Source: an uncultured Candidatus Saccharibacteria bacterium
GTDB lineage: Bacteria; Patescibacteriota; CALEFQ01
Length of the DNA stretch: 64,000 nucleotides
NCBI GenBank assembly: GCA_965230955.1
Contig: OZ246404.1
Coordinates: 856,790 to 920,789, forward strand
Reading direction: 5' to 3'
The translations under genes were made by a program, and so were the position numbers. Below the pieces are notes generated by a model. That model did no database searches. It was not told the origin of the DNA and saw only the letters and a program-made list of their open reading frames with translations. Below, piece after piece: positions 33,548 to 50,540 of the stretch (its first letter is position 1; each line of letters opens with the position of its first letter).

Positions 33548-33555
33548 ATAAGTGA

Positions 33556-34974: not shown

Positions 34975-35063
34975 TTATTTATACCTAGATTATAAGGTTT
35001 TTCTGAGTGAGTAAATGTATGATAACACAGCCGAATTAGACCGGAAAGGACATCGACCGGGCA

Positions 35064-35350: not shown

Positions 35351-35371
35351 CTGGAGCAAAACAGATTTGCT

Positions 35372-35791
35372 TTAAACTAACTGCGATTTGTCTCCGGTTG
35401 AAAAGTAACTCGCAACATTTATTGCCTTTGAAAATCTATCCTCCTTAGGAAGACCATGAAAATCATTAGCAAACTGGTCCAGTAGATAAACAAGTGGTAT
35501 TGGCTTCAACAATGCTCCGACCGGCACATACATACCCTCACCTGCCCACTGACCAGCGCCGCTTTCTATTAGATAATTATATATGTTTTTGATTTCCGCT
35601 TCTCCGGCATTATATTTTCGAAGTATTTCCGCATGCTCACTCTTAACCATCTCTATCAATTCATTTAAAGCATCTTCACGCGGGCTTGTTTTATTACCAA
35701 GGTCATATACCGTTAGAGGTTGTTGAGAACCAAGTATGGATGAAATTCTTTTAATTTTCCCTAGCCTAATCGTGCTTGAAAAAAAGCCCAT
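35372..35791 (-). CDS. Hypothetical protein (139 aa)
   Basis: ORF co-oriented within cassette B. No recognisable motif. Confidence 0.4.
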   Translation of the reverse strand: MGFFSSTIRLGKIKRISSILGSQQPLTVYDLGNKTSPREDALNELIEMVKSEHAEILRKYNAGEAEIKNIYNYLIESGAGQWAGEGMYVPVGALLKPIPLVYLLDQFANDFHGLPKEDRFSKAINVASYFSTGDKSQLV

Positions 35792-35817
35792 ATATTCAAA
35801 ATTAATTGAAATAAAAC

Positions 35818-36558: not shown

Positions 36559-36599
36559 AAATTGTTTAGTTATATATGCTTGAATGATGTTTTACTAGT

Positions 36600-37373
36600 C
36601 TATTTCCGTGCAAATAAATAAGACGTCGCCTTCGGTTCAAACCCAATCTTCTGCAAAGCTTTATACGAGCCCGCGGATTTGTCAACCAGGGAATAACACT
36701 CGTTCACCCCCGAGTCGATCGCGACATTACAGCGATGCTTGACCATGTTGAGATAATGTCCCTGATGGCGATACTCAGCCACCGTGCCGGCATTGTGGAG
36801 ATACGCCAGATTTAGCTTTGGCGACATCACTATCGAGCCAAAGGCGACAAACTTGTGATCGACGGACAGCAAATATGATTTGTAGAGCGGATCCCGGCCC
36901 GAACCCTGCTCCAGATCAAAGAAGTATTGAGAATACTCTTTCTCCGATTTCCATTCCGGGAAGCATTTAACCGCAATATCGAGATATTCTGCCAGATTTT
37001 CTTTGGTCACAGACACCAGGTCACCTGCCACATCACCAAATTTCTCTTCTATCTTCTGATACATATAGACTTCCGAACCAAATTGTTTATATCTTCGCCG
37101 GATCAACTCGGGTTGATATCCGGACATAAGATCTTCGGGAATATAAAAAGCAATTTCTCGATTCTCCGACGGGGCTGCACCAATAATCTTCGCAGCCGCA
37201 TCCCAGGAAAAATCCGCAGGTAAAACAATCGGCACAATGTAGTTATACCAGATATCCTTGAATTTAGACTTGACGAACCAAAAAGTCTCGGATTCAGTAG
37301 CTTCCGGATAAATGCTACTCTGCAGCAACTTCAAATTTCGCAGGAAAAGTGGATTGTCCTTGGCGATATCCAT
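36600..37373 (-). CDS. Paralog of the GNAT-like two-domain protein
   Basis: About 90% nt identity over ~780 bp to 33556-34350. Confidence 0.5.
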   Translation of the reverse strand: MDIAKDNPLFLRNLKLLQSSIYPEATESETFWFVKSKFKDIWYNYIVPIVLPADFSWDAAAKIIGAAPSENREIAFYIPEDLMSGYQPELIRRRYKQFGSEVYMYQKIEEKFGDVAGDLVSVTKENLAEYLDIAVKCFPEWKSEKEYSQYFFDLEQGSGRDPLYKSYLLSVDHKFVAFGSIVMSPKLNLAYLHNAGTVAEYRHQGHYLNMVKHRCNVAIDSGVNECYSLVDKSAGSYKALQKIGFEPKATSYLFARK

Positions 37374-37406
37374 AATGGATTCAATTATCGAGATTTCTCA
37401 TCGAAA

Positions 37407-37925
37407 TTAACCTTTTTGAGCATCTGCTTTGTCTTCTATAGATTTTTCAACTTTGGGAATAGCCTCACTCAGAAATCGATAAAAACTTTTTGCGCGCTTT
37501 CTCCAGTAAGAATCATCCGGGCTAAATTTATCTCCAGGGGTGACAGTTAACCTTGTATACAAGCAGTCTTCCCGCATTTCTGGGATGCGACTCTGTGCCC
37601 ACGAAAAATTTTCATCTGTTGGAGTAAAATTGTAGCATGTGGCAGATAAGCTCATTACAGTATTGCATTTTGCCTCATGACTAAGCAGCAGTCTAATCTC
37701 ATCATCCCAAATATCTTCACCTGCAAGCAATGTAGCCTTCGCCAATTCTTCTAGCCCTACAATCAACAATGCCTGGGCTTCAGAAAATAAACCTTCTTTC
37801 ATCAACAAACTAGCTGCTGATTGTTTTTTCTTAGCATTGTCGATTGCCGCTTTAGCTAGTTTGTGCCAATTTTCAGTGACGAATTCTTTATCGATCCTTG
37901 GCTTTCTATTTTTTGATTTATTCAT
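37407..37925 (-). CDS. HEPN-domain-like protein
   Basis: Helical protein with an Rx4H motif (RLLLSH) downstream of an LLIVGLEELAKA helix. 4-bp overlap with the upstream MBL gene. Confidence 0.4.
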   Translation of the reverse strand: MNKSKNRKPRIDKEFVTENWHKLAKAAIDNAKKKQSAASLLMKEGLFSEAQALLIVGLEELAKATLLAGEDIWDDEIRLLLSHEAKCNTVMSLSATCYNFTPTDENFSWAQSRIPEMREDCLYTRLTVTPGDKFSPDDSYWRKRAKSFYRFLSEAIPKVEKSIEDKADAQKG

Positions 37926-38515
37926 TTTTTTATAACTTTAAACATTTTCCCATGTCCCGGCACCACATAATCAGCTACTTTTAGTATCTTGCTCCGACTT
38001 TGCCGAAGCTGTTTTTCGTTTTTGACATAGGGATCTCTTTTGGCCAACAAGCTTGCCCGATCTGTTTTTTGAACTTCATTATCTGTCCAAAAAAAGACAT
38101 CCGAAGCAATCGCCACTTTTCCATAGTCTTTGGTGTCCACCAATAATGTCCCCTGGAAAATATCATGCCCAGGGGTTTTGATTATCTTAATTCCCGTTCC
38201 CGGTATTTTCCCGTCATGATCTTCGATTCGTCCATCCCAAGAATAGATTGAACTATCATCAACAACCTTGGCCGATTCAAAGATACCAGTGAGCAACGCA
38301 TGGTCGGAATGCATGTGAGTTAGAAAAACAAAGTCAATATCAGACAATGACAAGTCAGCGCGTTTTAAGGACGCCAATAGCTTATTCCGATTCATCCCGG
38401 GATCAACCACAATGTTTAGTCCCTTGTCTTGAATCAACGTCGTAGTCGAGGAAGCATATTCACCCCCCTTTTCTTCTCGGGCATAGCCGGGAATAAGGAT
38501 TTTTAGTTTGGCCAT
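37922..38515 (-). CDS. MBL-fold metallo-hydrolase
   Basis: HxHxDH motif (THMHSDHA) and downstream His/Asp ligands. Confidence 0.8.
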   Translation of the reverse strand: MAKLKILIPGYAREEKGGEYASSTTTLIQDKGLNIVVDPGMNRNKLLASLKRADLSLSDIDFVFLTHMHSDHALLTGIFESAKVVDDSSIYSWDGRIEDHDGKIPGTGIKIIKTPGHDIFQGTLLVDTKDYGKVAIASDVFFWTDNEVQKTDRASLLAKRDPYVKNEKQLRQSRSKILKVADYVVPGHGKMFKVIKK

Positions 38516-38534
38516 AAATTTAATCTTAATTTTT

Positions 38535-39101
38535 TTACAGGGTCAAATCTCCCTTTAGGGTATATTCGCCGATTCTCCGGACTTCTTCCAATACTCTGGC
38601 TTTCGCCACTTCGTCTTTCCACCAATTGTCTTTTCGGATATTTCGTTCATCAAGCACCGGATAAAAACAAAACTCAATATGCTTGGGGAAATAATTCTGC
38701 GCAGTCATCAGGACTCGGCGGGCATGAAATGCTTTGCAGACAAACAAAATAGTCTTTGTTTTTTCGAGCCCGATAGTTTTATCAATGACCGGGAGAGAAA
38801 ATTGAATGTTTTCTTTGGTATTCGTCGATTCTCGCTCCAATATGAAGGCTTCTCTGGGGATGCCTAGCTCGACTCCTCTTTCGAAAAAACGATCAGCTTC
38901 TATTGCTTTTAATTTCCCTTTGCTGTGCCCGGTAATCAAAATCCTACGTGAATATCCCTGGTCATACAACTTCTTAACTTCGTCCATGGTCGATAAATAG
39001 CTATGACCGAAAACAAACATCAGATCGGATTTCTTGAGATTTGCAGGCAAAAACAAGAAGTCGGAAATCGCTTGGGTTGTCGATATAATATTGGGAATCA
39101 T
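38535..39101 (-). CDS. DUF218 (YdcF/SanA-like) domain protein
   Basis: ESTNTKEN motif. The start was moved to the internal Met (MIPNIIS) so the gene does not run into the junction repeat. Confidence 0.55.
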   Translation of the reverse strand: MIPNIISTTQAISDFLFLPANLKKSDLMFVFGHSYLSTMDEVKKLYDQGYSRRILITGHSKGKLKAIEADRFFERGVELGIPREAFILERESTNTKENIQFSLPVIDKTIGLEKTKTILFVCKAFHARRVLMTAQNYFPKHIEFCFYPVLDERNIRKDNWWKDEVAKARVLEEVRRIGEYTLKGDLTL

Positions 39102-39170
39102 GAAATGATATGAAACAGTAATCTTATGATAACACAGCCAAATCTTGCCGCAAAGGACATCGACCGGCCA

Positions 39171-39515
39171 AGCTGGACTCGAATTCACCCAATCCCTTAT
39201 CTAAGCGAAAACCCCGATTTCCGGGGTTTTCTGATGCTCTTCACTCGAACTGGTTTTTTCGGCTTCACTTAGCGAAAATTTGTATTCAAAGACAAATAAA
39301 AATCCATTGGCTCCACAAGATGGACATCATCCGAACCTTTTTCCATCAGCACGAGGATGATTGGCTCATCGTGGCATTTATCAAGATTCCCCTTGGACTT
39401 TTGCGACTGCCCGACAGAGGGGTAAACCTATGTGAGTATTACCCTGTTTTCTGTTTCTGATTCTAGCGTAGCAAGTCTCCAAGTCCTGGCAATGCATTTT
39501 TTGTCCAGATGGGCA
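39171..39515. repeat. Junction module J3: three tRNA-3'-end-like fragments, terminator-like hairpin and F sequence
   Basis: Core copy at 39171-39185. Hairpin AAAACCCCGATTTCCGGGGTTTT. Copy b at 39240-39258. Copy a at 39308-39337. F spans 39338-39515. Confidence 0.75.
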
Positions 39516-39540
39516 ATTTTTCAAAATAAAAGGGAGTTGT

Positions 39541-40506
39541 CTATTTTGCAGTCTTGCCATCCACAGACAAATACTTCTTGGCCGCATCTATCGTAATCTG
39601 CCCACCGACAGGATAGACATAATCTTCAACATTATGGCCAAGCTCATTTATTTCCAATATCGGAAACTTATAGTCAGCAGTCACCTCCAAAACCATTTCA
39701 GACACATTTCTGTTCTCTTCTTTGGCTTTCATGGCACTCTCGTCAAACCACCCTAAAACCATTCCTTTCAGCCCATTAAAAACTCCGTGCAGTTTTAGAG
39801 CATAAAGATACCAATCTAGTTCTGCCACTTCATCTGTGCCTTCAAGGAGTAATATCTTACCTTTCGTATTGGGAAAGTATCCTGCTAAAATATTTCCGCA
39901 TACCACCGCTAAATGACCGCCAACCGCCACACCGCTGGCATTTCCTTTCCTTATGCATTTCCACCCTGGTCTTTTTTTGCTTTTGTCTTTATGCTTCCAG
40001 TTAAGATTTGGTTTGATCTCACCTACCTGACCATCAAAAAAAGTCTTTTTTATATTCTCTTCTATCGCTTTTGACATAGGTTTTCCGAATGTCCACATTA
40101 AATCTGGACCTAAATATGTCATCAGTCCAGTTCTGGCATAGATTGCATTTACGAGTGTAGTCCCATCTGAAAACCCCACAAACATTTTGGGATTTTTTTT
40201 AATCATCTCGTAATCTATGGCATCCAAAATATGATTGGCGGTGAATCCACCCTGGGCCATCATTACCATCTTGACCTTCGGATCTCGCCACATTTCATTG
40301 AATTCTTTCGCTCTTTGAATCCTTGTTCCCGCACTATAGTAATGCTGATCAAAAACTGATTCGAAATACTTAACCTTAAGCCCCCACGACTCAAGTTTTT
40401 GAACTCCTTTTTGAAATTGTTGCTTCCTGTCACCGACAGGACCAGATGGAGAGATAATTCCGACGAGAGCTCCTTTGTGCAGACGTTTTGGAATTATTGT
40501 TTTCAT
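39541..40506 (-). CDS. LD-carboxypeptidase (S66, MccF-like)
   Basis: N-terminal GALVGIISPSGPV. Ser-nucleophile region GFSDGT. Length and layout typical of the S66 family. Confidence 0.75.
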   Translation of the reverse strand: MKTIIPKRLHKGALVGIISPSGPVGDRKQQFQKGVQKLESWGLKVKYFESVFDQHYYSAGTRIQRAKEFNEMWRDPKVKMVMMAQGGFTANHILDAIDYEMIKKNPKMFVGFSDGTTLVNAIYARTGLMTYLGPDLMWTFGKPMSKAIEENIKKTFFDGQVGEIKPNLNWKHKDKSKKRPGWKCIRKGNASGVAVGGHLAVVCGNILAGYFPNTKGKILLLEGTDEVAELDWYLYALKLHGVFNGLKGMVLGWFDESAMKAKEENRNVSEMVLEVTADYKFPILEINELGHNVEDYVYPVGGQITIDAAKKYLSVDGKTAK

Positions 40507-40531
40507 ATGTTTTAGTAAATATTGATAAGTA

Positions 40532-41044
40532 TTATCTTATTATTCTACTATTATTCCTAGTTTCGGGATAACATTTCCAGCAACAGTTTTTTTGTTTGGG
40601 TGACAAAAAGGCATATCGTATTCCAAGAGCATCCGGTTTCCAAAAACTAAAAACAAATTTTATTACTTTGTCCAGATTATATTCCTTACAAGTGGCAATC
40701 GAGATATCGATCAGATTATGATCTGGGTAGTAATAGAACGACTCGTGGGAATGATCAAGAATCGAAATAACATTTCCGGCATCAGGACGAGTCCACCAGG
40801 TATATGCATTCCAATCATTGGGTTTGAACTTCTCATTGGTATAGTAAGGAGAAAGAGCGTTTTTTGAATCGGGGGCGATCACCATTGGCCCACAAAAAAT
40901 ATGCATACCGCAAATTTGGGCAAGCTTCTTTTGAAACTCTTCTACCTCGCCAGTGGTCACCTGTTTTTTGTCTGTAGGCTTCAGTTCAATCTCAAGCCAG
41001 GATCGTTCAAGGTCAGGGGCAAAATCTTCTACGCCATTCTTCAT
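40532..41044 (-). CDS. Hypothetical protein (170 aa)
   Basis: ORF between the HNH and LD-carboxypeptidase genes. Rich in Trp/Tyr/His. Confidence 0.4.
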   Translation of the reverse strand: MKNGVEDFAPDLERSWLEIELKPTDKKQVTTGEVEEFQKKLAQICGMHIFCGPMVIAPDSKNALSPYYTNEKFKPNDWNAYTWWTRPDAGNVISILDHSHESFYYYPDHNLIDISIATCKEYNLDKVIKFVFSFWKPDALGIRYAFLSPKQKNCCWKCYPETRNNSRIIR

Positions 41045-41055
41045 AAATTTGGAAA

Positions 41056-41619
41056 TTATAATTCATAAGGCATGCCACAATTAGGGCAACGATCCGAGCC
41101 CACGGAAAGACCAATGGTTGTATTACACTTTTTACAATGAACATTACTATATATCCTGTCCCCGAGCTTTGTTGCGGTCATATTCTTACTACCGAGTTCT
41201 TCAAGGGAGGTCGCAGTATTTATTTCTCTCTCCTCCTCCTTCTTTAATTGCTTAAATTGGTCTTTTATTTCTGCCAGCAATCTTCTCTCATTTGCCTTAT
41301 CATTTCGGAGCAACTTAATTACTTGCCCCAATTGATCAAGTTTTTCAAATATAGGCTGGGAAGAGTCATCCTTATATCGGTTTTCGCATATCTCATACCA
41401 TAAATCACGCATTTCCCTTATTGTTTTTCTGTGATCAGGATTATTTCCGTAGTTCCTATGGCATTTGCTGCAGAGAGGAGCAGCATTTTCAATATTATCT
41501 TTCCCTTCTTGTCCTTCTGGAATGATATGATGGACATCAATAAAAGGTTCCTTGCAAATGCAGCACAGATAGTGTGCTTTCCTTCTTACTTCTTTTTTTA
41601 TCGCTTCGTTGAAAGACAT
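41056..41619 (-). CDS. HNH endonuclease with C-terminal zinc ribbon
   Basis: HHIIPEGQEGKDNIENAAPLCSKCH HNH core. CKKCN...CPNCG zinc ribbon. Confidence 0.75.
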   Translation of the reverse strand: MSFNEAIKKEVRRKAHYLCCICKEPFIDVHHIIPEGQEGKDNIENAAPLCSKCHRNYGNNPDHRKTIREMRDLWYEICENRYKDDSSQPIFEKLDQLGQVIKLLRNDKANERRLLAEIKDQFKQLKKEEEREINTATSLEELGSKNMTATKLGDRIYSNVHCKKCNTTIGLSVGSDRCPNCGMPYEL

Positions 41620-41677
41620 CTTAGATATTTCTATTTAATGATTGATTCATTATAAAATGTAATAGACTAAATTAGCA

Positions 41678-41958
41678 AGCTAGACTCGAACCCGACCAAT
41701 CCCTTATCTAAGCGAAAACCCCGTTTTGCGGGGTTTTTCGATGCTGTTCACTCGAACTGGTTTTTTTGGCTGTGCTTAGCGAAAATTTGTATTCAAAGAC
41801 CAATAAAAATTCGTTGGCTCCCCCTGGTCGAATCAATTAGAACTTTTTGCAAGGCCCATGAGGATGATTTAGTCGTTCCTATCTTTATCAAAACGCCAGA
41901 TGGATACCTGAGACTTCCAGACAGAGGCGTGAAACTTGATGAGTATTATCCACTGCAC
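41678..41958. repeat. Junction module J4 (diverged copy)
   Basis: Core copy AGCTAGACTCGAACC. Hairpin AAAACCCCGTTTTGCGGGGTTTTT. Copy b. Copy a TGGCTCCCCCTGGTCGAATCAATTAGAAC at 41815-41843. Diverged F through ~41958. Confidence 0.7.
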
Positions 41959-41960
41959 TC

Positions 41961-42272
41961 CTAATTCTCATCCTTTAATTCCGCTAGGAATTTCCGCTCT
42001 TCAATTACTAATTCTTCTTTTAACTTTACCGCTATCTTTTCTTTTTCAACATTAATTGGACGCATAAGAAGAATCGCCGACACAAATGAAAAAAGCTTTT
42101 TTCTCCGTTCGCTAACGCTCGAAACTTCCATCAAAAGAGAGTTTAATTGAGAAAGCTCTTTCTCTTCAAGTTTATTTAGCATTCCCGAAAAATTATCCAA
42201 GTCTTTGTGTCCGGATAAATTTAGCGCAGCAGCTATCTCATTACTCCTTGAATTTTGATTCTTCTTGGGCAT
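41961..42272 (-). CDS. Hypothetical protein (103 aa)
   Basis: ORF overlapping the 3' end of the upstream gene by 32 bp. Low confidence. Confidence 0.3.
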   Translation of the reverse strand: MPKKNQNSRSNEIAAALNLSGHKDLDNFSGMLNKLEEKELSQLNSLLMEVSSVSERRKKLFSFVSAILLMRPINVEKEKIAVKLKEELVIEERKFLAELKDEN

Positions 42273-43053
42273 AGTATTGAATTATAAGATGGGGCAATTT
42301 GAATTGTCCGAAATCGGGTGCTTTATATTGTTTTGGGTAATCCTGAACTCTAGCTACTAATTTCTTAGCCTGCTTACTTCCAAGAAATTGCATGACTGAT
42401 CCCACAAATGCTTCAGCAGTAGCAATAACCCCAGATGCCAATGCCACTTGAGCCGCATCAATATATTCCGAAGTCAAAGCAGCCAACCCAAGGCCCATCA
42501 CTACGCCCAAACCCGCTTGAAAATATGATCCCAGCGCAACTACATTACCAATCTCACGCAAATGACCCATCCAATAGGCAGACCTTCTCATGCCCTCGTC
42601 AGCTGTTCTGGAATAAACTTCTTTAACATCATCAAAATTATTAACTTTGTTCGGTTTTAAATACCCTGAAAACGTTTGCCAAAACCCCGGCTTGGTGACT
42701 ATTGCTTTAGAGGCCGAGATCAAATCAAAGACTGCATCTGCAAGTTTGTCCCCATCACTCTTTATTTCACTCTCAGACTTCTTTGCATCCTTAATCCTCT
42801 TTTCAATCCGTGATTCAAAAAGAGCAATTTTCTTTTCGTCTATTCCAGCTTCTCTCATATCACATATGACATCGTCTCTAATAACATCGAGCCTCTGATT
42901 AATTGCATCTATCCGGTTTAACTTATACATTGCATCTTTAGTGTCGACAGCTGCGGATTCGGTATTAGTTCCCAATTCCTCTGATGATATTTCAGCTTTG
43001 TCTTTATTTGTCTTCACGAACTCTGGATTAGGTTGTCGGATAGTTTCACGCAT
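42241..43053 (-). CDS. Hypothetical protein with C-terminal glycine-zipper hydrophobic segment
   Basis: Charged coiled-coil N-terminus. C-terminal GLGVVMGLGLAALT...GVIATAEAFVGSVMQFLG. Confidence 0.4.
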   Translation of the reverse strand: MRETIRQPNPEFVKTNKDKAEISSEELGTNTESAAVDTKDAMYKLNRIDAINQRLDVIRDDVICDMREAGIDEKKIALFESRIEKRIKDAKKSESEIKSDGDKLADAVFDLISASKAIVTKPGFWQTFSGYLKPNKVNNFDDVKEVYSRTADEGMRRSAYWMGHLREIGNVVALGSYFQAGLGVVMGLGLAALTSEYIDAAQVALASGVIATAEAFVGSVMQFLGSKQAKKLVARVQDYPKQYKAPDFGQFKLPHLIIQYYAQEESKFKE

Positions 43054-43223
43054 ATGTTTATTTTTTCACTTCAATAATATCTTTAATAATAACAAATTCT
43101 AGCAATTCTGCCCAATATTTCATTCGTAATTCCAGGATAGCATTTCCGAGAATTGAGAGAAGGTGTTTTTTGTGTGAGGAGCAATAAGTATGTGGATAAA
43201 TATTGGGACTTAACCCAACTCAT

Positions 43224-44141
43224 TTAATTCACAATATTCTTCGACTTATCTTTAGTGCAGGCAATTATAGTATCAACCCAAATTCTAAAGTCTTCGGCGA
43301 CGGCCTCTTTTGTATACCAAGCGATGGGAGGAGTAATCAGAATATTGCCCTTATACTTTCCATCATTTACGCGCCTTTCGGATTCCATTGCCAATCCGGC
43401 CAACTTACCATCTGCAACCATTTTAGCCGCCACCGGTAAGTCAAAAAGATCTCCACCAGTAATACTGATCAAAAACGCATCCTTTTTCATTTTTGCTAAT
43501 TTGGATTTATTAATAGTACCTTTTGTTTCTTTATTTCTCGCCATAGTCGGAAAAATAAAGTCGGAATTCTTCATTACTTTATCTAAACTCTGATATTTGA
43601 ATCTTTTATCCTTGTGATGCTTGGACCAATAAACAATTTCCATCCCCATCGCTTTTCCAAGTTCAGCAATACGAGTTCCGATACTTCCAAGTCCAACAAT
43701 TCCCATGGTCTTACCACGAACTTCTAAACCCAAATGCTTTTCATAATCAAGCTGCCAATTATTTTGCATAATCAACGGCAACTTTTTTACCAAATTAAGC
43801 ATCATGCTAATTGCATATTCGGCGACCGACTCTGTTGAATACTTCGCAACATTGGTTAAGGCGATACCATGTCCTCGCAACCATTTACCGTCTACCCAAT
43901 CAAAAGCCGTTGTCGGCAAACAAACTGCTTTTAGCCCTGAAATCTTTTTCGCATCGCTGTTGGAAAATTTCCAATCAACCAATTCAGGAGCAAGACCCAG
44001 AACCTTATCTTCGCTATCCGTAAAAAGCTTGTCGAAATAACTTGGTTTCTTTTCTACAAAAACAACCTCACCGGCTTTGACCAATGATTGGACTTGCGAC
44101 TTGGTAAAATCAACTTTTTGATTGATGATGATTACGCGCAT
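43224..44141 (-). CDS. D-isomer-specific 2-hydroxyacid dehydrogenase family protein
   Basis: NAD-binding GIVGLGSIGTRIA motif. A catalytic R/E/H region is expected in the C-terminal half. Confidence 0.8.
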   Translation of the reverse strand: MRVIIINQKVDFTKSQVQSLVKAGEVVFVEKKPSYFDKLFTDSEDKVLGLAPELVDWKFSNSDAKKISGLKAVCLPTTAFDWVDGKWLRGHGIALTNVAKYSTESVAEYAISMMLNLVKKLPLIMQNNWQLDYEKHLGLEVRGKTMGIVGLGSIGTRIAELGKAMGMEIVYWSKHHKDKRFKYQSLDKVMKNSDFIFPTMARNKETKGTINKSKLAKMKKDAFLISITGGDLFDLPVAAKMVADGKLAGLAMESERRVNDGKYKGNILITPPIAWYTKEAVAEDFRIWVDTIIACTKDKSKNIVN

Positions 44142-44395
44142 TATTTTAAAATTACGTAATTAGTTAACATTACCCAACATCCCTGAACAGTTTTAATTAT
44201 TTTGCTTTACTTAAGCTAAAATCTGACAAAATGGGTACTATACTTCGTTTCGTTATAGTCTCCTCATAGAAGATTATAAGCGATTGGACTGTTGGTGAGA
44301 TATATCACACAAACTCCCATGGGTAGTATATTCAAGGCATTTTGTCACACAATAATTTATTTGTTTAGCCCACTGGATAGATATCAGAATAAACT

Positions 44396-45469
44396 TTAAA
44401 GAATAGAAAACTCTTCTTCCTTTGCATCTTCCAGTATGCTTAAAAATTCATTAAACTCACTACGTTTTCTATTAATAATATTTTCTAGCAATTCGATTTT
44501 TATATCTTGCAAATCCTTTGGCATATTTGGATCCAAATCGAATCCTATTAAAAATGTATCCACCACCTTCAAGTTCGGATTGTGATTTTGAATAATGCCT
44601 TTGTATCCCAAGACCTGACCCACATGCTTAGTATTGAGCCTTATATTTGGTCTTTTTAACTCAACTAAAACGATATGCCTTTCATCCTGGAGAAATATTT
44701 TTAGAATCAAATCTGGCCTTTTGCCAAGCTCGCTGTCAATTCCTAGCTTTTGTGCCAAGAACTCACTTAGTGGTTTATTACTTTTCACAAGATCATAATT
44801 ATTATCAAGTAGCCATAAATTATTTTCTAATAGCTTATGGATTTCTTGCTCTTTCGTTTTTTTGTCCTTCAACAATATTTGCAGTAATTTAATTATTGAT
44901 ATCTTTTTCTTTACCAATTCTGCAATGGAGCTAATTTGACCTATTCTTAAATCATTTAGTAATGAAGCAAAGCCTGTTATGTCTTTTTCTTCAGCTTCAG
45001 ACAGTTTTTTCAACATAATATCTATGTTCTCAGCCTTTATTTCATATATTCTCAACCCGAGTCTATCAAGAGCTTCGAGGCTTGCGGCTGATAATTTGGC
45101 TATATTCTTATTCGCAAGAACTTTTTCAATAAAATCGGGGTCTTCTTTTAAGACCTGCTCTATTTTGATTAAAACTTCGTCTTTAACTAATTCGGTTTTT
45201 TGAATGGGCCACTCATGCTCTTTTACCGATTCTACCTCAACAACACTTTTTAAATCAGTCCAATCTTTGAAATGAAGATTAAAGAATTGCTGTTTATTTG
45301 CAGATTTACCCAACAAAATCCTCTTCATAACAACATAATTTCTATCTTTGTGTTCAGAGTCACTTAGAATAGCAAAAGTAGTCAAACCACTGGACCAATT
45401 TTTTGTTAATTTTTTAATAACTTTGAACTTATGCATAAATATTAATTTATTAAAATAATACGGCCCCAT
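44396..45469 (-). CDS. Putative PD-(D/E)xK nuclease of the DUF4263/Shedu-like type
   Basis: C-terminal region contains RPDLIL ... VLVELKRP, a D...ExK arrangement. Long helical N-terminal region. The family assignment was made by eye only. Confidence 0.4.
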   Translation of the reverse strand: MGPYYFNKLIFMHKFKVIKKLTKNWSSGLTTFAILSDSEHKDRNYVVMKRILLGKSANKQQFFNLHFKDWTDLKSVVEVESVKEHEWPIQKTELVKDEVLIKIEQVLKEDPDFIEKVLANKNIAKLSAASLEALDRLGLRIYEIKAENIDIMLKKLSEAEEKDITGFASLLNDLRIGQISSIAELVKKKISIIKLLQILLKDKKTKEQEIHKLLENNLWLLDNNYDLVKSNKPLSEFLAQKLGIDSELGKRPDLILKIFLQDERHIVLVELKRPNIRLNTKHVGQVLGYKGIIQNHNPNLKVVDTFLIGFDLDPNMPKDLQDIKIELLENIINRKRSEFNEFLSILEDAKEEEFSIL

Positions 45470-45526
45470 GTTTTATGATAACATACTTAGGGTACCCGAC
45501 AAGCATTAAGTATAAGTGAGACTCGA

Positions 45527-45860
45527 ACCCTCAAAATCCCTTATCTAAGCGAAAACCCCGTTTTGACGGGGTTTTCTATCTCCCTGGTTCGAACCTGCTT
45601 CTTTGGGCTAAACTTAGCGAATATTTGATTTAAAAACTCTAAAATTCTGCTCTGGCTCCCCCTGGTCGAATCAATTAGAACTTTTTGCAAGGCGCATGAG
45701 GATGATTTTGATGTTCCTGTGTACATAAAAACGAATAATGGATTAGAGCTGAAAACTGGATGGGATTTCAGAGTGAGAGATTATTATCCCCTTCCCTGAT
45801 CCCAATTTCAGGATAGCAGATTCATGGATCTGGCAAAGACATTTTTTGTGTGAGGAACAA
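45527..45860. repeat. Junction module J5
   Basis: Core copy GAGACTCGAACCC. Hairpin AAAACCCCGTTTTGACGGGGTTTT. Copy b CCCTGGTTCGAACC. The 20-mer AAATTCTGCTCTGGCTCCCC at 45642-45661 is identical to 50386-50405 at the intact tRNA. Diverged F follows. Confidence 0.75.
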
Positions 45861-46192
45861 AAAAGATGTGGATAAAATCGTTGCATAGTTCCACCTCTAA
45901 CGAGCTCTACTTCCCTATCGATTTTTGAATTCTCCTTCAAGTTTCTCATGTCCCAGGTTATGACGACATTGTAATATGTATGACCAGAAAGAAAGGACAC
46001 TCAATCCACACACTTGTTCAATATGTCAGGTCAAAGTTCGATAGTCGCGTTACGAAGAACCTTAGATAGAATTGTGGGGGAAAGATCTAGATAACGGCAA
46101 TAAATTCAGATAAGATAGAAGCAGTCCTTTTTAAAGGAGGTTTCTTTTGCTAAATTGGCATAGTATGAGCTCAGGCGAAGAAACGTTGCGAC

Positions 46193-47494
46193 ATGGAAAA
46201 AATTAGAATTTTTATTAGTCATTCATCAAAAGACATAGATTTAGTAAGTAAGCTGGTAAGTGCTCTTCAAGAGTCGTTTGTTATACCTAGTGGAGCTATC
46301 CGATGCACCTCTTTATCTGGGTATAAATTAACACCAGGGGCACATACATCCACCACATTATTAGAAGAGCTGTTAAAAGCTGATTTGATTATAGGAGTCT
46401 TGACACGATTAAGCTCAAAGTCCAGCTGGGTTCTGTTTGAACTTGGGGCTGGGTGGGGGAAAAAAATATGGACGGTCCCTTTGCTTGGAGGGCTTGATTT
46501 CGACGAGATAGAAGGCCCACTAAAAGAATTCCACGCTATTAAGACTGATGACGAGGACGCCCTACTAGACCTTTTTGAGAAAATGCAAAATCAGCTAAAA
46601 TTGCAGCCACAGTCTGCTTCTATAAGATTGTCGGCAATACGAAAAATAGTAAATGCTTTAAAGGAGGGAGAAAAAGTTAAATCAGATGCTTATATTCCGC
46701 AGCCTGAAGAACTGGCTCATAGCCAGATGCCTGAACGTGTCGAAACACCAACGATTGTAACAGCTTACCTTAGTAAACTAACCAAAGAGACGCGCGAGGA
46801 AGAAGTTCTTCCTTTTTTTAATAGAGCTGTCTCTTATCATAAGCATGACAAAAAAATCCTGGCAAGATTTTATTTTCAACTAGCACAATTTTTTTTAAAA
46901 AAAGAAGAGCCAAGTAAAGCTCTTGAGTATTTGAATATTTCCTTAGAAAATAGTCCAAATGATATATATACCTTGAATTCCCGAGGTAAAATTTTTATAA
47001 GAATGAAGCAGTTCAAAGACGCAGAAGCAGATTTTAAGCTAGCTTTAGAAATCGACAGCGAGAGCTTGGTCAATCTAAGCTCATTAATGAGACTTTACTC
47101 GAAAAACCTACTAGAGCACATAGATAAAATACCATATCTAAGCAAGGAGCTGATAACGCTAGCTCGAAAGAAAAATGATCCCGATTCCACTTCGTTCGGT
47201 TATGCTCTCTGGGCTACTTCTCAAATTAAAGAAGACCCAAGAGCTGCTGAGATAAATTTTGACAACGCCTTAAAAGAAGCAGAGAGAATCGGTCGTAAAA
47301 TAAATAAAAATCGCAGAATTGTATCTATCTTAAGGCATCGAATAAAACTGTATTCCACTTTAAAGAGGGATGATGAGGCTAAACAAGATTTTATCCAGGC
47401 GTGGAATCTTTGCCTAGAATTTCCTGAGGACAGAGAGATCAAAAATTCAGTGGAAGCGCTAAAAGTTGAATCCGGGCATCTGATGGGCAATTAA
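46193..47494 (+). CDS. TIR-domain protein with C-terminal TPR repeats
   Basis: N-terminal IFISHSSKD start. SSWVLFELG (W with Glu at +4, the predicted NADase catalytic site). The C-terminal ~250 aa are TPR-like helical repeats. It is the only plus-strand gene in the array. Confidence 0.7.
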   Translation: MEKIRIFISHSSKDIDLVSKLVSALQESFVIPSGAIRCTSLSGYKLTPGAHTSTTLLEELLKADLIIGVLTRLSSKSSWVLFELGAGWGKKIWTVPLLGGLDFDEIEGPLKEFHAIKTDDEDALLDLFEKMQNQLKLQPQSASIRLSAIRKIVNALKEGEKVKSDAYIPQPEELAHSQMPERVETPTIVTAYLSKLTKETREEEVLPFFNRAVSYHKHDKKILARFYFQLAQFFLKKEEPSKALEYLNISLENSPNDIYTLNSRGKIFIRMKQFKDAEADFKLALEIDSESLVNLSSLMRLYSKNLLEHIDKIPYLSKELITLARKKNDPDSTSFGYALWATSQIKEDPRAAEINFDNALKEAERIGRKINKNRRIVSILRHRIKLYSTLKRDDEAKQDFIQAWNLCLEFPEDREIKNSVEALKVESGHLMGN

Positions 47495-47495
47495 A

Positions 47496-47526
47496 GAAGC
47501 CTTCATTTTTTCTGAATGAAGGCTTT
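47496..47526. terminator. Bidirectional hairpin terminator
   Basis: GAAGCCTTCATT ... AATGAAGGCTTT inverted repeat between the convergent TIR-TPR gene and the small minus-strand ORF. Confidence 0.55.
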
Positions 47527-47547
47527 CATTGTCATAAGTAGGCATGT

Positions 47548-47706
47548 TTACAATTCGTAGTTTTCTTTAAGAAATGCAATGTGCGCGTTCAGTAAATCTT
47601 TCTCTTCCTCGGACAAGTTGTCCGGGCCTAAGTCGTATTTTTCCTGATCCTGAAGAACCGCATCGAGCATTTTCAAGAGTGCCTCATACCTCTCTTTGGG
47701 TGTCAT
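47548..47706 (-). CDS. Small hypothetical protein (52 aa)
   Basis: Preceded by the SD AAGGAGGAAAAACT. The sequence is MTPKERYEALLKMLDAVLQDQEKYDLGPDNLSEEEKDLLNAHIAFLKENYEL. It falls below the size cutoff of the supplied ORF track. Confidence 0.4.
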   Translation of the reverse strand: MTPKERYEALLKMLDAVLQDQEKYDLGPDNLSEEEKDLLNAHIAFLKENYEL

Positions 47707-48313
47707 AGTTTTTCCTCCTTGAAAAAAATGATCTCTTTCTGGTCAGCCTTGCTCCTCATGGCCACACAGACATAAATCTTTTTCTTCGAGAAGGGATCAA
47801 CCCACGAAACGAAAAAATTATTTGTTACACCCTTTTCAAATTGAGTCAGGAAAACGATCCGTCCTCAGACTATTGATTGAAAAAACTTTAGTTGTGAAAA
47901 AATGGGAGTAGAACGGTTGGAAAAACATGCTCAAGAAAGCATCCAATAAACAATTGCACATCGGGATATACCCAACTTGACTATGCAAACCGAATCCCCT
48001 TTCGAATATTAGGAAGAAACTTGAAATGCAACCTTGATCTTTCATTTTACACGGATTAGGTTTTATGTCAAGGGTTATTTTACATGAAAAACCGTTCTGC
48101 AAGTGACCGTGCCTTATTCTAGCCATAATCTGATAAAACAGGTGATAAAATCCTTTCTGCTACAGTCTTTTCAGAGGAGATTATAAGCAATTGGAGTATA
48201 GGTTTCTTTTGGCTGAAATAGAGTATCGCACATGGTACACTAAATAACTAGAGTAACATATTTCGCCAAATATGGGACACTAAATTAATAGCAAATATTG
48301 CCTGATACTCTGT

Positions 48314-49399
48314 TTACCCCATAATTCCAACCAGCTTCTTAAACACATATACACTCGGCTTTTGCCCAGAACCTTTTTGAATTCTCTGAAGCACTCCACC
48401 CTTTAGAAGTCTCTCGATAATTCGAATCGAGCTCATCTTAGGAATCCCTGATTTTTTCACAAATTGGGCTGTTGTAAAATACGGGAAACAAAACAAGAAA
48501 TCCAGTGTCTTGATGGCAAACTGCGAGTGAGTAAGACTTTCAATCCGAATTTTTTTTGCATCATAAAGCTCGTGAATGGCTTTGGCCTTTTTGATGTTAA
48601 CCTTTGCCTGTTCAATCACAGCGGTCAGAAAATACTCAATCCAGCCCTCCCAATCCTGGTTTTGCGAAACCGATCTGAGTTTGCGGTAATAGGTCGCTCG
48701 ATCAGCTTCCAAATATTGACTCAAATAAAACGCTGGACTCAGAAGCACTTTTTTATCGTAGAGGAAAAGAGGAATAAGAATTCTTCCCAACCTGCCGTTG
48801 CCATCATTGAACGGATGGATCATTTCAAATTGTGCATGAATGATCGCCAATTGGACCATGAAGTCTTTTTCCGATGAATGGATATACTTTTCAAGGTTGG
48901 ACAGGCAATCCACTATTTTCTCCGGAGATGGAGGTACAAAAGAAGCATTTTCAATTTTAGAGCCAATGGGACCAATCCAATTCTGGGTGGATCTGAAATT
49001 GCCAGGATTTTTATTCTGTCCCCTGACCCCACTTAATAGAATTTGGTGAGTTCCTCGGATGAGACGCAAGCTTAGGGGAAGCTTTTTCATTTCACTAACG
49101 GCGAATGTCAGAGCTTTTCGATAATTAATCACCTCTTGGATATCCCCAAACTTCTCTGTTTTCATCTTGGGATCAGCTTCATATTCGAGCACTTCCTCAA
49201 GTGAAGCTTGGGTTCCTTCGATTTTAGATGAAAGAACTGCTTCTTGGGTTGTGAGGGGTGATAGCAGTACAGCAGGATTCGGAATACTTTGCAGAAGGCC
49301 ATCAAATCTGGCTACTTCCGCATTGGCTTTACCTATCAGATGCACAAACTTGTTCCAGTCAAGCTTCACAGGAAGCTTTTCTGGCTCAAAAGGCTTCAT
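48314..49399 (-). CDS. Fic family protein (class II: inhibitory helix plus C-terminal wHTH)
   Basis: Fic motif HPFNDGNGRLGR. N-terminal SSKIEG matches the [ST]xxxE[GN] inhibitory motif. Confidence 0.85.
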   Translation of the reverse strand: MKPFEPEKLPVKLDWNKFVHLIGKANAEVARFDGLLQSIPNPAVLLSPLTTQEAVLSSKIEGTQASLEEVLEYEADPKMKTEKFGDIQEVINYRKALTFAVSEMKKLPLSLRLIRGTHQILLSGVRGQNKNPGNFRSTQNWIGPIGSKIENASFVPPSPEKIVDCLSNLEKYIHSSEKDFMVQLAIIHAQFEMIHPFNDGNGRLGRILIPLFLYDKKVLLSPAFYLSQYLEADRATYYRKLRSVSQNQDWEGWIEYFLTAVIEQAKVNIKKAKAIHELYDAKKIRIESLTHSQFAIKTLDFLFCFPYFTTAQFVKKSGIPKMSSIRIIERLLKGGVLQRIQKGSGQKPSVYVFKKLVGIMG

Positions 49400-49625
49400 T
49401 TATTTGATAATTTAGTGGTTCACATAGTCAATAATAGACCGTGGGAGAGATTTGAGCAAGACAGGCTCTTAAAAGGACTGCTCATTTTAATATGTAACGC
49501 ATGGGGGGGACAAATTGTACCCCACTTCGAGTTGTCGACAAACTAGCGACAACAGCGGAAATTCATTATCGCAAGACAATTCAAGCGTCCGATTTGATCG
49601 GACAGTTCGATGGACCCAAACACTA

Positions 49626-50144
49626 TCAAAAATACGCAGATCCAATGGAATAGCGCCATCTCTGTTTTTTATCTTGAGCGACGGTAATCTGATCGAGATC
49701 GATGAGCACTTCTCTATCTTCGATGGATAGATTTGAGGAGACCAGGCTTACACCATCAAGCTCCGCGGTAATGCCAAATGATTTACAGAGACTTCCGGGA
49801 AATCTGGTCATATCCCTTGTGTTAAAAACTTCTCCTTCAAAATTCTCCTGCATTATTTCCATCCCATAAAAGGGAGTCGCTTTCCTAATGACTATTGGGC
49901 AGATCGATGATTTTTCACCAACGGCAACCGCGAGCTGGTATTTATTCTTGATGTTGAGGCTAATCAAGGCGGTGCCGGCCTTTCTGTTGTGGATGTGACT
50001 CTTTAGAGTTGGATTGATTTCAACTTCCTCAATCATGGCCGAAAGCGGTCCTTTTGATGAATTATGTACCAGATACTTCCCCAAAAGATTTCGGGCTGCG
50101 ATTTGGGGTGAGAGTTGATAGAACTCTTCTTTTAATGTGCTCAT
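49626..50144 (-). CDS. Hypothetical protein, possibly a 3-methyladenine DNA glycosylase (Mpg)-like fold
   Basis: N-terminal LLGKYLVH resembles the Mpg hallmark. The rest is too diverged to be sure. Confidence 0.3.
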   Translation of the reverse strand: MSTLKEEFYQLSPQIAARNLLGKYLVHNSSKGPLSAMIEEVEINPTLKSHIHNRKAGTALISLNIKNKYQLAVAVGEKSSICPIVIRKATPFYGMEIMQENFEGEVFNTRDMTRFPGSLCKSFGITAELDGVSLVSSNLSIEDREVLIDLDQITVAQDKKQRWRYSIGSAYF

Positions 50145-50396
50145 AATATAATGGGTTAATCTCTATTTCCAGAGTATCGAACCCGAGCAAAGAGCAAAAC
50201 CAATATTTTGTCTGAGTAGTAAAAAACCTGTGGATTGTATAAATCGATTCAAACTTGAGGTTGCGCTAAGTTAAGCTAAAATCGAGAAAGGGCAAAAGAC
50301 GTTAGAACCTCTCCATAGAAACAGAAAACCGCTTGGTTAAGCGGTTTGTTCGTGATTATAAGGCAAATTTTAAATCAAGGTTCTGAAATTCTGCTC

Positions 50397-50472
50397 TGGC
50401 TCCCCGGGCTGGACTCGAACCAGCGACATCCTCGTTAACAGCGAGGCGCTCTACCGACTGAGCTACCGGGGA
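50397..50472 (-). tRNA. tRNA-Asn (GTT)
   Basis: Cloverleaf read from the reverse strand. Acceptor TCCCCGG/CCGGGGA. D-arm GCTC-AGTCGGTA-GAGC. Anticodon loop CTGTTAA. T-arm GCTGG-TTCGAGT-CCAGC. Encoded CCA. Confidence 0.85.
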
Positions 50473-50540
50473 ATAATCAATAAGAATATTAAGATGTTAA
50501 GAGTATTAAGAAAATTAAGAGTTTGGAGAAATGAAGTAAA

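What the first reader, a model, noticed from the sequence alone, without database searches (positions are those of the whole stretch)
44396..45469. Shedu/DUF4263-like PD-(D/E)xK nuclease candidate in cassette D
The C-terminal region shows a D...E-x-K arrangement (RPDLIL ... VLVELKRP) after a long helical N-terminal region. This layout is reminiscent of Shedu SduA-type defence nucleases. It sits at the tRNA-proximal end of its cassette, next to junction J5.
Basis: inference. Interest (0 to 1): 0.55.

Follow-up and report, generated by a model that had tools for sequence, protein, structure and literature searches.

The report
Divergent Shedu-like defence nuclease gene
This gene encodes a distant relative of the Shedu anti-phage nucleases, made of a nucleic-acid-binding-type N-terminal domain, a helical linker and a DNA-cutting domain; it is a new and divergent member of a known kind of bacterial immune protein, not a new kind of system.

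Summary
The ORF at 44396-45469 (-) is real, and the RPDLIL...VLVELKRP strings are there. A bare D...ExK pattern means little: 43 of 68 long ORFs in the window have one. What counts is that E196, P241-D242, E259-x-K261, Q274 and Y278 are invariant across 62 diverse relatives. These residues align with catalytic motifs I-IV of Bacillus cereus Shedu.

Pfam SduA_C only just passes (27.1 bits against a cut-off of 27, first 60 of 159 positions). Canonical Shedu proteins score 75-102 bits. Profile-profile comparison with canonical Shedu gives 97% probability over the whole nuclease domain. Foldseek's best solved structure is B. cereus Shedu, followed by EndoMS/NucS.

The N-terminus is not simply helical. 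Residues 1-70 form a beta-beta-beta-beta-alpha domain resembling Pur-alpha, PC4 and Whirly proteins, the fold class of the B. cereus Shedu sensor. It does not match Pfam SduA_N.

The family is small, occurs mostly in Patescibacteria and has no conserved partner gene. In 4 of 12 contexts it sits inside Type I or Type III restriction-modification operons.

This is a divergent new member of a known kind, and its defence function is inferred, not shown. Interest is modest.

The parts
44396..45436 (-). Coding sequence of the Shedu-like nuclease: 346 aa plus stop. An alternative upstream ATG at 45469 would give 357 aa.
   Evidence: ORF list. Homologues start at the position of the second ATG. The identical 346-aa protein P0001 is in public assemblies.
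45197..45436 (-). N-terminal domain, residues 1 to about 80. The fold is beta-beta-beta-beta-alpha, Pur-alpha/PC4/Whirly-like, and it is the putative nucleic-acid sensor.
   Evidence: AF2 model of residues 1-90 has pLDDT 79.7 with strands 5-13, 17-25, 34-41 and 49-55 and helix 56-69. Foldseek hits Borrelia and human Pur-alpha at probability 0.99 and TM 0.52-0.63, plus MoSub1 and MRP1/2. Invariant residues are W14, S16, G17, G43, F52, D58, W59, L62, K63 and W76.
44867..45196 (-). Alpha-helical linker, residues about 81-190. It is conserved in sequence but modelled with low confidence as a monomer.
   Evidence: predicts helices 85-98, 102-107, 110-113, 117-132, 135-147 and 150-190, with pLDDT 40-51 for residues 81-170. 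Conserved columns include P100, L107, S119, E121, E132, F156, L160, L163 and Q167. GHKL-fused relatives share this module from about query residue 55 onward.
44399..44866 (-). PD-(D/E)xK nuclease domain, residues 191-346, DUF4263/SduA_C-like.
   Evidence: Pfam SduA_C matches residues 194-270. hhalign against canonical Shedu gives 97%. The model has pLDDT 75-93 in this region. Foldseek hits 8ti8, 5gkj and 2vld.
44849..44851 (-). Motif I glutamate, E196.
   Evidence: Invariant in A1 and A2. Aligns with the motif I glutamate of canonical Shedu. The B. cereus residue is E204.
44711..44716 (-). Motif II, P241-D242.
   Evidence: Invariant. D242 aligns with B. cereus D249.
44654..44662 (-). Motif III, E259-L-K261.
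   Evidence: Invariant. Aligns with B. cereus E264/K266.
44603..44617 (-). Motif IV, Q274-V-L-G-Y278 (QxxxY).
   Evidence: Q274 and Y278 are invariant. They align with the B. cereus Q295 region 'QVLTYK'.
45475..45502 (-). Promoter-like site, TTGTCG-16 nt-TATCAT with TG before the second hexamer, directly upstream of the first ATG.
   Evidence: Consensus scan only. The number of such sites in the region is no higher than in shuffles, so this is weak evidence.
45520..45743 (.). Repeated cassette junction upstream of the gene. It holds a degenerate copy of the tRNA-Asn 3' end plus its downstream flank, a GC-rich stem-loop and a second tRNA-like T-arm fragment.
   Evidence: Repeat families D3, D6 and D7. 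Alignment with the genuine tRNA-Asn region and four other junctions. The tRNA-Asn gene is at 50397-50472.

Best explanation
The gene encodes a single-protein nuclease that is distantly homologous to Shedu (SduA) and shares its three-part plan. That plan is an N-terminal Pur-alpha/PC4/Whirly-type domain, a helical linker, and a C-terminal PD-(D/E)xK domain of the DUF4263 type.

**Shown here**
- Homology of the nuclease domain to canonical Shedu.
- A complete, invariant set of catalytic residues: E196, D242, E259, K261 and Q274.
- The domain layout.
- The absence of any conserved partner gene.
- Its position in a variable, low-GC array of cassettes at tRNA-Asn, next to SoFic and TIR-TPR genes.

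**Inferred by analogy with B. cereus and E. coli Shedu**
- The protein forms a tetramer through its nuclease and linker parts.
- The N-terminal domains hold it inactive.
- It is released to nick or cut DNA when those domains bind a nucleic-acid feature of an invading phage or plasmid, such as single-stranded DNA or free DNA ends.
For: **Sequence and profiles**
- Pfam SduA_C: E 5.6e-6, 27.1 bits against a cut-off of 27.
- PADLOC SduA: E 9.3e-5.
- hhalign against five plasmid-borne proteins annotated 'Shedu immune nuclease family protein': 97.0% probability, E 8.6e-11, over the whole domain. The close family alone gives 94.1%.
- BLASTP and HMM alignments place D242, E259, K261, Q274 and Y278 on the published catalytic residues of B. 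cereus Shedu.
- The same residues are invariant in 62 diverse relatives.

**Structure**
- The best PDB match of the full model is B. cereus Shedu 8ti8 (probability 0.93). EndoMS/NucS follows at probability 1.0. EndoMS is the closest structural homologue of Shedu according to Gu et al..
- The N-terminal domain is beta-beta-beta-beta-alpha and hits Pur-alpha, PC4 and MRP1/2. Gu et al. assign this fold class to the B. cereus Shedu sensor.
- The layout of N-domain, helical linker and nuclease equals type I Shedu.

**Family and context**
- The linker-plus-nuclease module recurs with other N-terminal domains: GHKL ATPase in 13 of 62 relatives and Roc-COR in 3 of 62. This matches the Shedu pattern of one core with varied sensors.
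- No neighbour is conserved across 12 contexts. Four contexts lie inside R-M operons and two lie beside methyltransferases. Published Shedu genes show the same kind of association.
- Window neighbours include SoFic at 402 bits, a TIR-TPR protein, an HNH protein and a HEPN_AbiV protein.
Against: - The DUF4263 match is marginal and covers only model positions 2-61 of 159.
- Four close relatives score 18-25 bits, below the cut-off, whereas canonical Shedu proteins score 75-102 bits over the whole model.
- No PDB chain is hit significantly by sequence. 8ti8 scores E 0.069, about the same as the HsdR nuclease domain at 0.072.
- All Foldseek E-values are weak: 2e-3 for the full model and 0.14 or worse for the N-domain.
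- The N-domain has no match to Pfam SduA_N.
- The spacing between motif III and motif IV is about 16 residues shorter than in B. cereus Shedu.
- No phage-defence, oligomer or nuclease data exist for any member of this family.
- Half of the genomic contexts show nothing defence-related.
Confidence: 0.65

Rival explanations
1. It is the cutting component of, or an accessory nuclease to, a restriction-modification system. On this reading it is a restriction endonuclease rather than an autonomous Shedu-type sensor-nuclease. In this window it would be an orphan copy.
For: - The best NCBIfam hit is the BbrUII/HgiDII restriction enzyme family (E 2.5e-8).
- GHKL-fused relatives match that family along their full length at about 230 bits.
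- In L016, L017 and L019 the homologue sits between Type III mod and res with gaps of a few bases or an overlap. In L007 it sits between hsdM-like and hsdS genes. In L013 and L003 it lies beside methyltransferases.
Against: - The score is 33 bits against a family cut-off of 550, and the protein lacks the GHKL half.
- No methyltransferase was found among the ORFs scanned between 28 and 51 kb of the window.
- Six of 12 contexts have no R-M gene.
- The Type I and Type III operons that host it already encode their own nuclease subunits.
- The N-domain looks like a single-strand nucleic-acid binder, not a sequence reader or a modified-base reader.
- Published Shedu genes are also often embedded in R-M loci, so this context does not discriminate between the two readings.
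Confidence: 0.15
2. It is a housekeeping DNA repair or recombination nuclease of the NucS/EndoMS or RecB-like kind, not an immune protein.
For: - Foldseek gives probability 1.0 to EndoMS/NucS.
- One relative hits Pfam NucS_C, and P0191 hits NCBIfam NucS weakly.
- Pur-alpha/Whirly-type domains occur in DNA maintenance proteins (established knowledge).
- Several contexts are flanked by housekeeping genes.
Against: - Distribution is patchy. Only 10 loci were confirmed, from a scan with one peptide pattern of 185,579 species genomes, and the full-length family forms only a few 50%-identity clusters.
- The window copy sits in a low-GC variable array at a tRNA gene.
- Neighbours differ in every genome.
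- There is no NucS N-terminal domain.
- No sequence-level hit to NucS is significant for this protein.
Confidence: 0.08
3. It is an inactive or decaying passenger gene in a degenerate integrated element and has no current function.
For: - The cassette array shows decayed tRNA fragments, and no integrase was found.
- The promoter evidence is no better than chance.
Against: - The reading frame is intact and full length.
- Every catalytic and family-invariant residue is retained.
- An identical protein with the same downstream genes occurs in two independent sequencing runs.
Confidence: 0.05

Closest known systems
Shedu SduA, type I / Type 1A (B. cereus B4264 SduA, PDB 8ti8; Pfam SduA_N PF21407 + SduA_C PF14082)
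   Same: - It is a single polypeptide of similar size, 346 aa against a type I mean of 386 aa.
- The order of parts is the same: N-terminal beta-beta-beta-beta-alpha domain of the PC4/Whirly/Pur-alpha class, helical linker, then C-terminal PD-(D/E)xK domain.
- Motifs I-IV align residue for residue.
- 8ti8 is the best PDB fold match.
- No partner gene is needed, and it is often found inside R-M loci.
   Different: - SduA_C scores 27 bits over a third of the model, against 75-102 bits over the whole model for canonical Shedu.
- There is no SduA_N match.
- About 20 residues are missing between motifs III and IV, and there is a different insert between motifs I and II.
- Motif I reads E-x-x-I-H rather than E-x-x-W-Q.
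- Its hosts are mostly Patescibacteria, which do not appear in the taxon list given by Gu et al..
- No activity has been tested.
GHKL-ATPase-fused Shedu homologues (Type 1D of Gu et al.) / BbrUII-HgiDII family restriction enzymes (NCBIfam NF050001)
   Same: These are the nearest relatives outside the protein's own family. P0047-P0050 score E 1e-21 to 1e-25 and share the linker plus nuclease module from about residue 55 onward. The same catalytic residues are invariant.
   Different: - They are about 600 aa long, with HATPase_c_3 and a middle domain at the N-terminus.
- The window protein has a Pur-alpha/Whirly-like domain in that position.
- It scores 33 bits against a cut-off of 550 for NF050001.
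- No methyltransferase lies nearby in the window.
NucS/EndoMS mismatch endonuclease (PDB 5gkj, 2vld)
   Same: The nuclease core fold is the same, at Foldseek probability 1.0 over about 130 columns. Gu et al. name EndoMS as the closest structural homologue of Shedu.
   Different: - There is no significant sequence match.
- The N-terminal domain differs.
- Distribution is patchy and island-borne, not housekeeping.
- TM-scores are only 0.25-0.36.
N-terminal nuclease domain of Type I HsdR (EcoR124I, PDB 2w00; Pfam HSDR_N / HSDR_N_2)
   Same: It has the same D...ExK...QxxxY motif string, and its profile score equals that of Shedu (E 0.072). Weak HSDR_N_2 or HSDR_N hits occur for the query and for 9-10 of 62 relatives.
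   Different: There are no helicase motor domains. The scores are below the family cut-offs. The overall architecture is unrelated.

Membership tests
Shedu (SduA) | Match to the DUF4263 / SduA_C profile (PF14082) at or above the curated cut-off | tested here: inconclusive
   The window protein scores 27.1 bits against a cut-off of 27.0, E 5.6e-6, covering model positions 2-61 of 159. Relatives P0003, P0016, P0028 and P0044 score 18-25 bits. Canonical Shedu proteins score 75-102 bits over positions 1-159. Sixteen of 62 superfamily members hit the profile at E <= 1e-3.
Shedu (SduA) | Homology of the whole nuclease domain to canonical Shedu | tested here: met
   hhalign of A5 against five annotated Shedu proteins gives 97.0% probability, E 8.6e-11, over 135 columns from motif I to the C-terminal helix. 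A1 against the same set gives 94.1%. No equivalent control against other PD-(D/E)xK families was run.
Shedu (SduA) | PD-(D/E)xK motifs I (E), II (D), III (ExK) and IV (Q) all present | tested here: met
   E196, D242, E259, K261 and Q274 are invariant in 26 close and 62 distant relatives. They align with B. cereus E204, D249, E264, K266 and Q295.
Shedu (SduA) | Type I layout: N-terminal regulatory domain, alpha-helical linker, C-terminal nuclease | tested here: met
   The AF2 models show a beta-rich domain at residues 1-70, helices at 85-190 and a nuclease core at 191-346.
Shedu (SduA), Type 1A | N-terminal domain of the SduA_N family (PF21407) | tested here: not met
   No SduA_N hit appears even at E <= 10. 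The Priestia Shedu scores 132.6 bits on the same profile.
Shedu (SduA), Type 1A | N-terminal domain with the sPC4/Whirly fold | tested here: inconclusive
   The model is beta-beta-beta-beta-alpha at pLDDT 79.7. The top Foldseek hits are Pur-alpha proteins at probability 0.99 and TM 0.52-0.63, plus MoSub1 and MRP1/2. All E-values are 0.14 or worse, and no dimer model could be made.
Shedu (SduA) | Single-gene system with no conserved partner | tested here: met
   Twelve distinct contexts share no gene.
Shedu (SduA) | Homotetramer formed through the nuclease domains | not testable with these tools
   Only monomer prediction is available. The low confidence of the linker in the monomer model is compatible with an intertwined dimer, but it does not show one.
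Shedu (SduA) | Protects against phage; the N-terminal domain restrains a toxic nuclease | not testable with these tools
   This needs experiments.
BbrUII/HgiDII restriction enzymes (NF050001) | Full-length match above the equivalog cut-off, including the GHKL ATPase half | tested here: not met
   The protein scores 33 bits against a cut-off of 550, and only model positions 425-575 of 659 are matched. No HATPase domain is present.
BbrUII/HgiDII restriction enzymes (NF050001) | Adjacent cognate DNA methyltransferase | tested here: not met
   No methyltransferase domain was found in the 30 ORFs scanned between 28 and 52 kb. Small ORFs were not all scanned.
NucS/EndoMS | NucS N- and C-terminal domains detectable by profile | tested here: not met
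   There is no NucS hit in Pfam or NCBIfam for this protein. Only fold-level similarity of the core was found.

The most novel reading that the evidence does not exclude
This Patescibacteria-centred clade may be a distinct kind of Shedu-like nuclease that is functionally wired to restriction-modification systems. It is inserted, apparently translationally coupled, between mod and res of Type III operons and between hsdM and hsdS of Type I operons. There it could act as a latent back-up nuclease, released when a phage disables the R-M complex, much as PrrC is held by EcoprrI. The solitary copy in this window would then be a version that has escaped that control.
Probability: 0.1. Interest if true: 0.6.

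Novelty: new member of a known kind. Interest (0 to 1): 0.35.

Why it matters
**Reach of Shedu.** If confirmed, the finding extends Shedu-type single-protein immunity to ultra-small episymbiotic Patescibacteria. It does so through a clade that the standard DUF4263 profile barely sees (27 bits here, 18-25 bits for relatives), so routine defence-system finders probably miss it.

**Link to restriction enzymes.** The work connects the GHKL-fused 'Type 1D Shedu' lineage to the named BbrUII/HgiDII family of Type II restriction enzymes. This bears on where the border between Shedu and restriction enzymes lies.

**R-M embedding.** Homologues are often embedded in Type I and Type III R-M operons, which gives a concrete place to test cooperation between Shedu-like nucleases and R-M systems.

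None of this changes the general picture of Shedu biology.

Tried and rejected
- **Sequence searches of the PDB.** The single protein and the close-family profile gave nothing relevant. The wider profiles gave only sub-significant hits to 8ti8, HsdR and EndoMS.
- **Plasmid and phage collections.** tblastn of the protein found no match in either.
- **Viral structure library.** Foldseek against BFVD gave only generic PD-(D/E)xK and RPB5-like hits.
- **Recovering B. cereus SduA.** A 63-aa fragment searched in the 5.8-billion-protein index returned a single 97-aa fragment. Canonical Shedu sequences were taken from plasmids instead.
- **Naming the source organism.** Exact look-ups of ten window proteins gave no names, only a 1,136,458-bp NCBI contig. 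The supplementary table of Gu et al. is not held, so I could not check whether this family is among their 7,687 homologues.
- **Rfam scan of 30-51 kb.** Only the tRNA-Asn gene was found. The junction fragments do not score as tRNA.
- **Promoter and terminator scan.** Counts were no higher than in shuffled sequence.
- **Readings considered and rejected.** A Type II restriction enzyme was rejected because there is no methyltransferase and no GHKL half. A NucS-type repair enzyme was rejected because of the patchy, island-borne distribution. A pseudogene was rejected because the frame is intact and all invariant residues are kept.

Full report
**1. The observation**

The window has an ORF at 44396..45469 on the minus strand, 357 aa long. 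The D, E and K codons lie at 44713-44711, 44662-44660 and 44656-44654.

The public copy of the identical protein (P0001) is 346 aa long. All homologues start at the position of the second ATG, 45436. I therefore number from that start.

A bare D...ExK pattern carries no information here. It occurs in 43 of 68 window ORFs of 150 aa or more. The full string E...PD...ExK...QxxxY occurs only in this ORF.

**2. Conservation**

Forty-six full-length homologues at 37-68% identity were found. In an alignment of 26 of them the following are invariant: E196, H200, W208, P241-D242, E259-x-K261, Q274 and Y278. Many N-terminal and linker positions are invariant too.

A profile search of 1.84 billion representative proteins found 1,114 relatives at E <= 1e-3. 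In 62 diverse ones the invariant columns are exactly E196, W208, P241, D242, E259, K261, Q274 and Y278. This is the four-motif signature of PD-(D/E)xK nucleases.

**3. Relation to Shedu**

Profile hits for the window protein:

| Library and model | Result |
|---|---|
| Pfam SduA_C (DUF4263) | E 5.6e-6, 27.1 bits, cut-off 27, model positions 2-61 of 159 |
| PADLOC SduA | E 9.3e-5 |
| NCBIfam BbrUII/HgiDII restriction enzyme | E 2.5e-8, 33 bits, cut-off 550 |

For calibration, I took five plasmid genes annotated 'Shedu immune nuclease family protein'. They score 75-102 bits over the whole SduA_C model. Four close relatives of the window protein score 18-25 bits. The family is therefore a remote relative that the Pfam profile barely detects.

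Profile-profile comparison settles the homology. The nuclease domain of 26 diverse relatives against the five canonical Shedu proteins gives 97.0% probability, E 8.6e-11, over 135 columns from motif I to the C-terminal helix. The close family alone gives 94.1%.

HMM and BLASTP alignments put D242, E259, K261 and Q274 on B. cereus D249, E264, K266 and Q295 (residue numbers from Gu et al.). They also align 'HVGQVLGYK' with 'AVTQVLTYK'.

There are differences. About 20 residues present between motifs III and IV in canonical Shedu are absent here. The segment between motifs I and II is different. By plain profile score the PDB chain of Shedu (E 0.069) is no better than the HsdR nuclease domain (E 0.072).

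**4. Structure**

The full-length AF2 model has mean pLDDT 71.5. Residues 170-335 are confident (75-93) and show the expected core:
- helix 196-205 carrying E196;
- strands 243-248 and 254-260 carrying D242 and E259/K261;
- helix 269-285 carrying Q274 and Y278;
- two further strands and a long C-terminal helix.

Foldseek against the PDB ranks B. cereus Shedu 8ti8 first (E 2e-3, probability 0.93, 306 columns). EndoMS/NucS follows at probability 1.0, then RPB5 and Nt.BspD6I. No hit reaches E 1e-3.

A separate model of residues 1-90 (pLDDT 79.7) is beta-beta-beta-beta-alpha. Its top matches are Borrelia and human Pur-alpha (probability 0.99, TM 0.52-0.63), Drosophila Pur-alpha with DNA, the PC4 homologue MoSub1, and T. 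brucei MRP1/2. All E-values are 0.14 or worse.

Gu et al. describe the B. cereus Shedu N-domain as one beta-beta-beta-beta-alpha unit of the sPC4/Whirly fold. They name MRP1/2, PC4, Whirly and PurA as its relatives. That is the type I Shedu plan. There is no sequence match to Pfam SduA_N.

The linker, about residues 81-170, is conserved but poorly modelled. This would fit an intertwined dimer like the B. cereus linker, but that is inference.

**5. Wider family**

The linker-plus-nuclease module recurs with other N-terminal parts:

| N-terminal part | Relatives (of 62) |
|---|---|
| GHKL ATPase (HATPase_c_3) | 13 |
| Roc-COR GTPase | 3 |

Further relatives are about 400 aa long and carry no known N-terminal domain. 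This matches the published picture of one Shedu core with varied sensors, including a GHKL class.

The GHKL forms match the BbrUII/HgiDII restriction enzyme family along their full length at about 230 bits. That is below the equivalog cut-off of 550.

**6. Context**

In the window the gene lies in a low-GC stretch from about 28 to 51 kb. This stretch ends at tRNA-Asn, 50397-50472.

The stretch is divided by repeated junctions at about 32.1, 35.1, 39.2, 41.7 and 45.5 kb. The one directly upstream of the gene (45470-45760) carries a degenerate copy of the tRNA-Asn 3' end and the sequence that follows the real tRNA. This looks like successive insertions at the tRNA gene. No integrase was found among the ORFs scanned.

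Gene content around the finding:
- **Same cassette:** a 2-hydroxyacid dehydrogenase and two unknown proteins.
- **Next cassette towards the tRNA:** a TIR-TPR protein, a SoFic protein (PADLOC 402 bits) and a methylpurine glycosylase.
- **Further away:** an HNH protein and a HEPN_AbiV protein, mixed with metabolic genes.
- No methyltransferase was seen.

Elsewhere, 12 distinct contexts share no gene:

| Loci | Context of the homologue |
|---|---|
| L016, L017, L019 | Between Type III mod and res, separated by a few bases or overlapping |
| L007 | Between an hsdM-like gene and hsdS |
| L013, L003 | Beside DNA methyltransferases |
| L005 | Near an integrase |
| Window | tRNA-Asn cassette array described above, no R-M gene |
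| L009, L015, L018, L020 | Housekeeping neighbours or none of note |

Gu et al. report 602 Shedu genes inside R-M systems.

The hosts named are Saccharibacteria, Adlerbacteria, Doudnabacteria, Parcubacteria and unclassified Patescibacteria, plus one Nitrospiraceae MAG contig and a TA06 fragment. The window's own genome is a 1.14-Mb contig without a name in the tables. That it is a Patescibacteria genome is inferred.

**7. Mechanism**

*Shown:* a complete, conserved PD-(D/E)xK site; homology to Shedu; a Shedu type I layout; no partner gene; and an accessory-genome location.

*Inferred from B. cereus and E. coli Shedu:* a tetramer whose nuclease is restrained by the N-domains and released when they bind phage-derived nucleic acid, such as single strands or free ends, after which it nicks or cuts DNA.

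I put this at 0.65. The rivals and their weights:
- An R-M nuclease or accessory: 0.15.
- A repair nuclease: 0.08.
- A dead passenger gene: 0.05.

**8. Novelty**

Shedu as defined by Gu et al. is very broad: 7,687 homologues and 79 N-domain families. The present protein fits their Type 1A pattern at the level of fold.

It is new in three respects. It is a divergent clade that sits at the Pfam threshold. It occurs in Patescibacteria. It is often embedded in R-M operons. I rate it a new member of a known kind, with interest 0.35.

The most novel reading not excluded is an R-M-coupled back-up nuclease, at probability about 0.1.

Noticed in passing
window 32000-50480: There is a tandem array of five or more cassettes downstream of tRNA-Asn (50397-50472, minus strand). 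They are separated by repeated junctions at about 32148-32356, 35137-35345, 39169-39516, 41676-41905 and 45520-45743. The junctions hold decayed copies of the tRNA-Asn 3' end and its flank, a GC-rich stem-loop (AAAACCCCG...CGGGGTTTT) and a second T-arm-like fragment. Two 209-nt copies are 98% identical. No integrase was found among the scanned ORFs.
   Followed up: partly
window 48314-49399 (-): This is a full-length SoFic-type Fic protein (PADLOC SoFic, E 7e-121, 402 bits; Pfam Fic_N + Fic). It sits in the cassette between the finding and the tRNA. Fic genes also lie next to the homologue in L007.
   Followed up: partly
window 46193-47494 (+): This gene encodes a TIR domain fused to TPR repeats. 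Its TIR part resembles SpbK and ThsB in PADLOC (E 1e-8 and 2e-5). It is the only sizeable plus-strand gene in the array and is divergent from the Shedu-like gene.
   Followed up: partly
window 41056-41619 (-) and 37407-37925 (-): Other cassettes of the same array hold a small HNH endonuclease with a C-terminal zinc-ribbon-like end (weak PADLOC hits to Type IV REase and ZorE) and a HEPN_AbiV protein. They are mixed with metabolic genes encoding short-chain dehydrogenases, a GNAT, peptidase S51, an LD-carboxypeptidase and a 2-hydroxyacid dehydrogenase.
   Followed up: partly
window 44203-44296 and 48110-48203: A 94-nt repeat at 71% identity lies just 3' of the Shedu-like gene and just 3' of the SoFic gene. 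It could be a shared 3' element or a small RNA. It is unexplained (family D8).
   Followed up: no
window 33562-33861 / 36609-36908 and 30829-30991 / 33184-33346: Cassettes share coding repeats at 86-91% identity. These fall in paralogous short-chain dehydrogenase genes and unknown genes, which suggests cassette duplication or recombination within the array.
   Followed up: no
L016 6290-11689; L017 1007-6484; L019 6293-9020; L007 4114-8391: In other Patescibacteria genomes the homologue is inserted between Type III mod and res, or between an hsdM-like gene and hsdS. Gaps are a few bases, or the genes overlap by 14 nt.
   Followed up: partly
P0047, P0067, P0086, P0138, P0173, P0191 (relatives, not in the window): The GHKL-ATPase-fused relatives of about 600 aa match NCBIfam BbrUII/HgiDII restriction enzyme at 195-239 bits (P0191 in a single stretch over model positions 7-655 of 659), below its cut-off of 550. 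This suggests that the published 'Type 1D GHKL Shedu' class and this family of Type II restriction enzymes are one lineage.
   Followed up: partly
window 45469-45502 (-): A promoter-like -10 element with a TG extension ends six bases before the first ATG, so the longer 357-aa form would need a leaderless mRNA. The 346-aa start has no obvious ribosome-binding site either.
   Followed up: no
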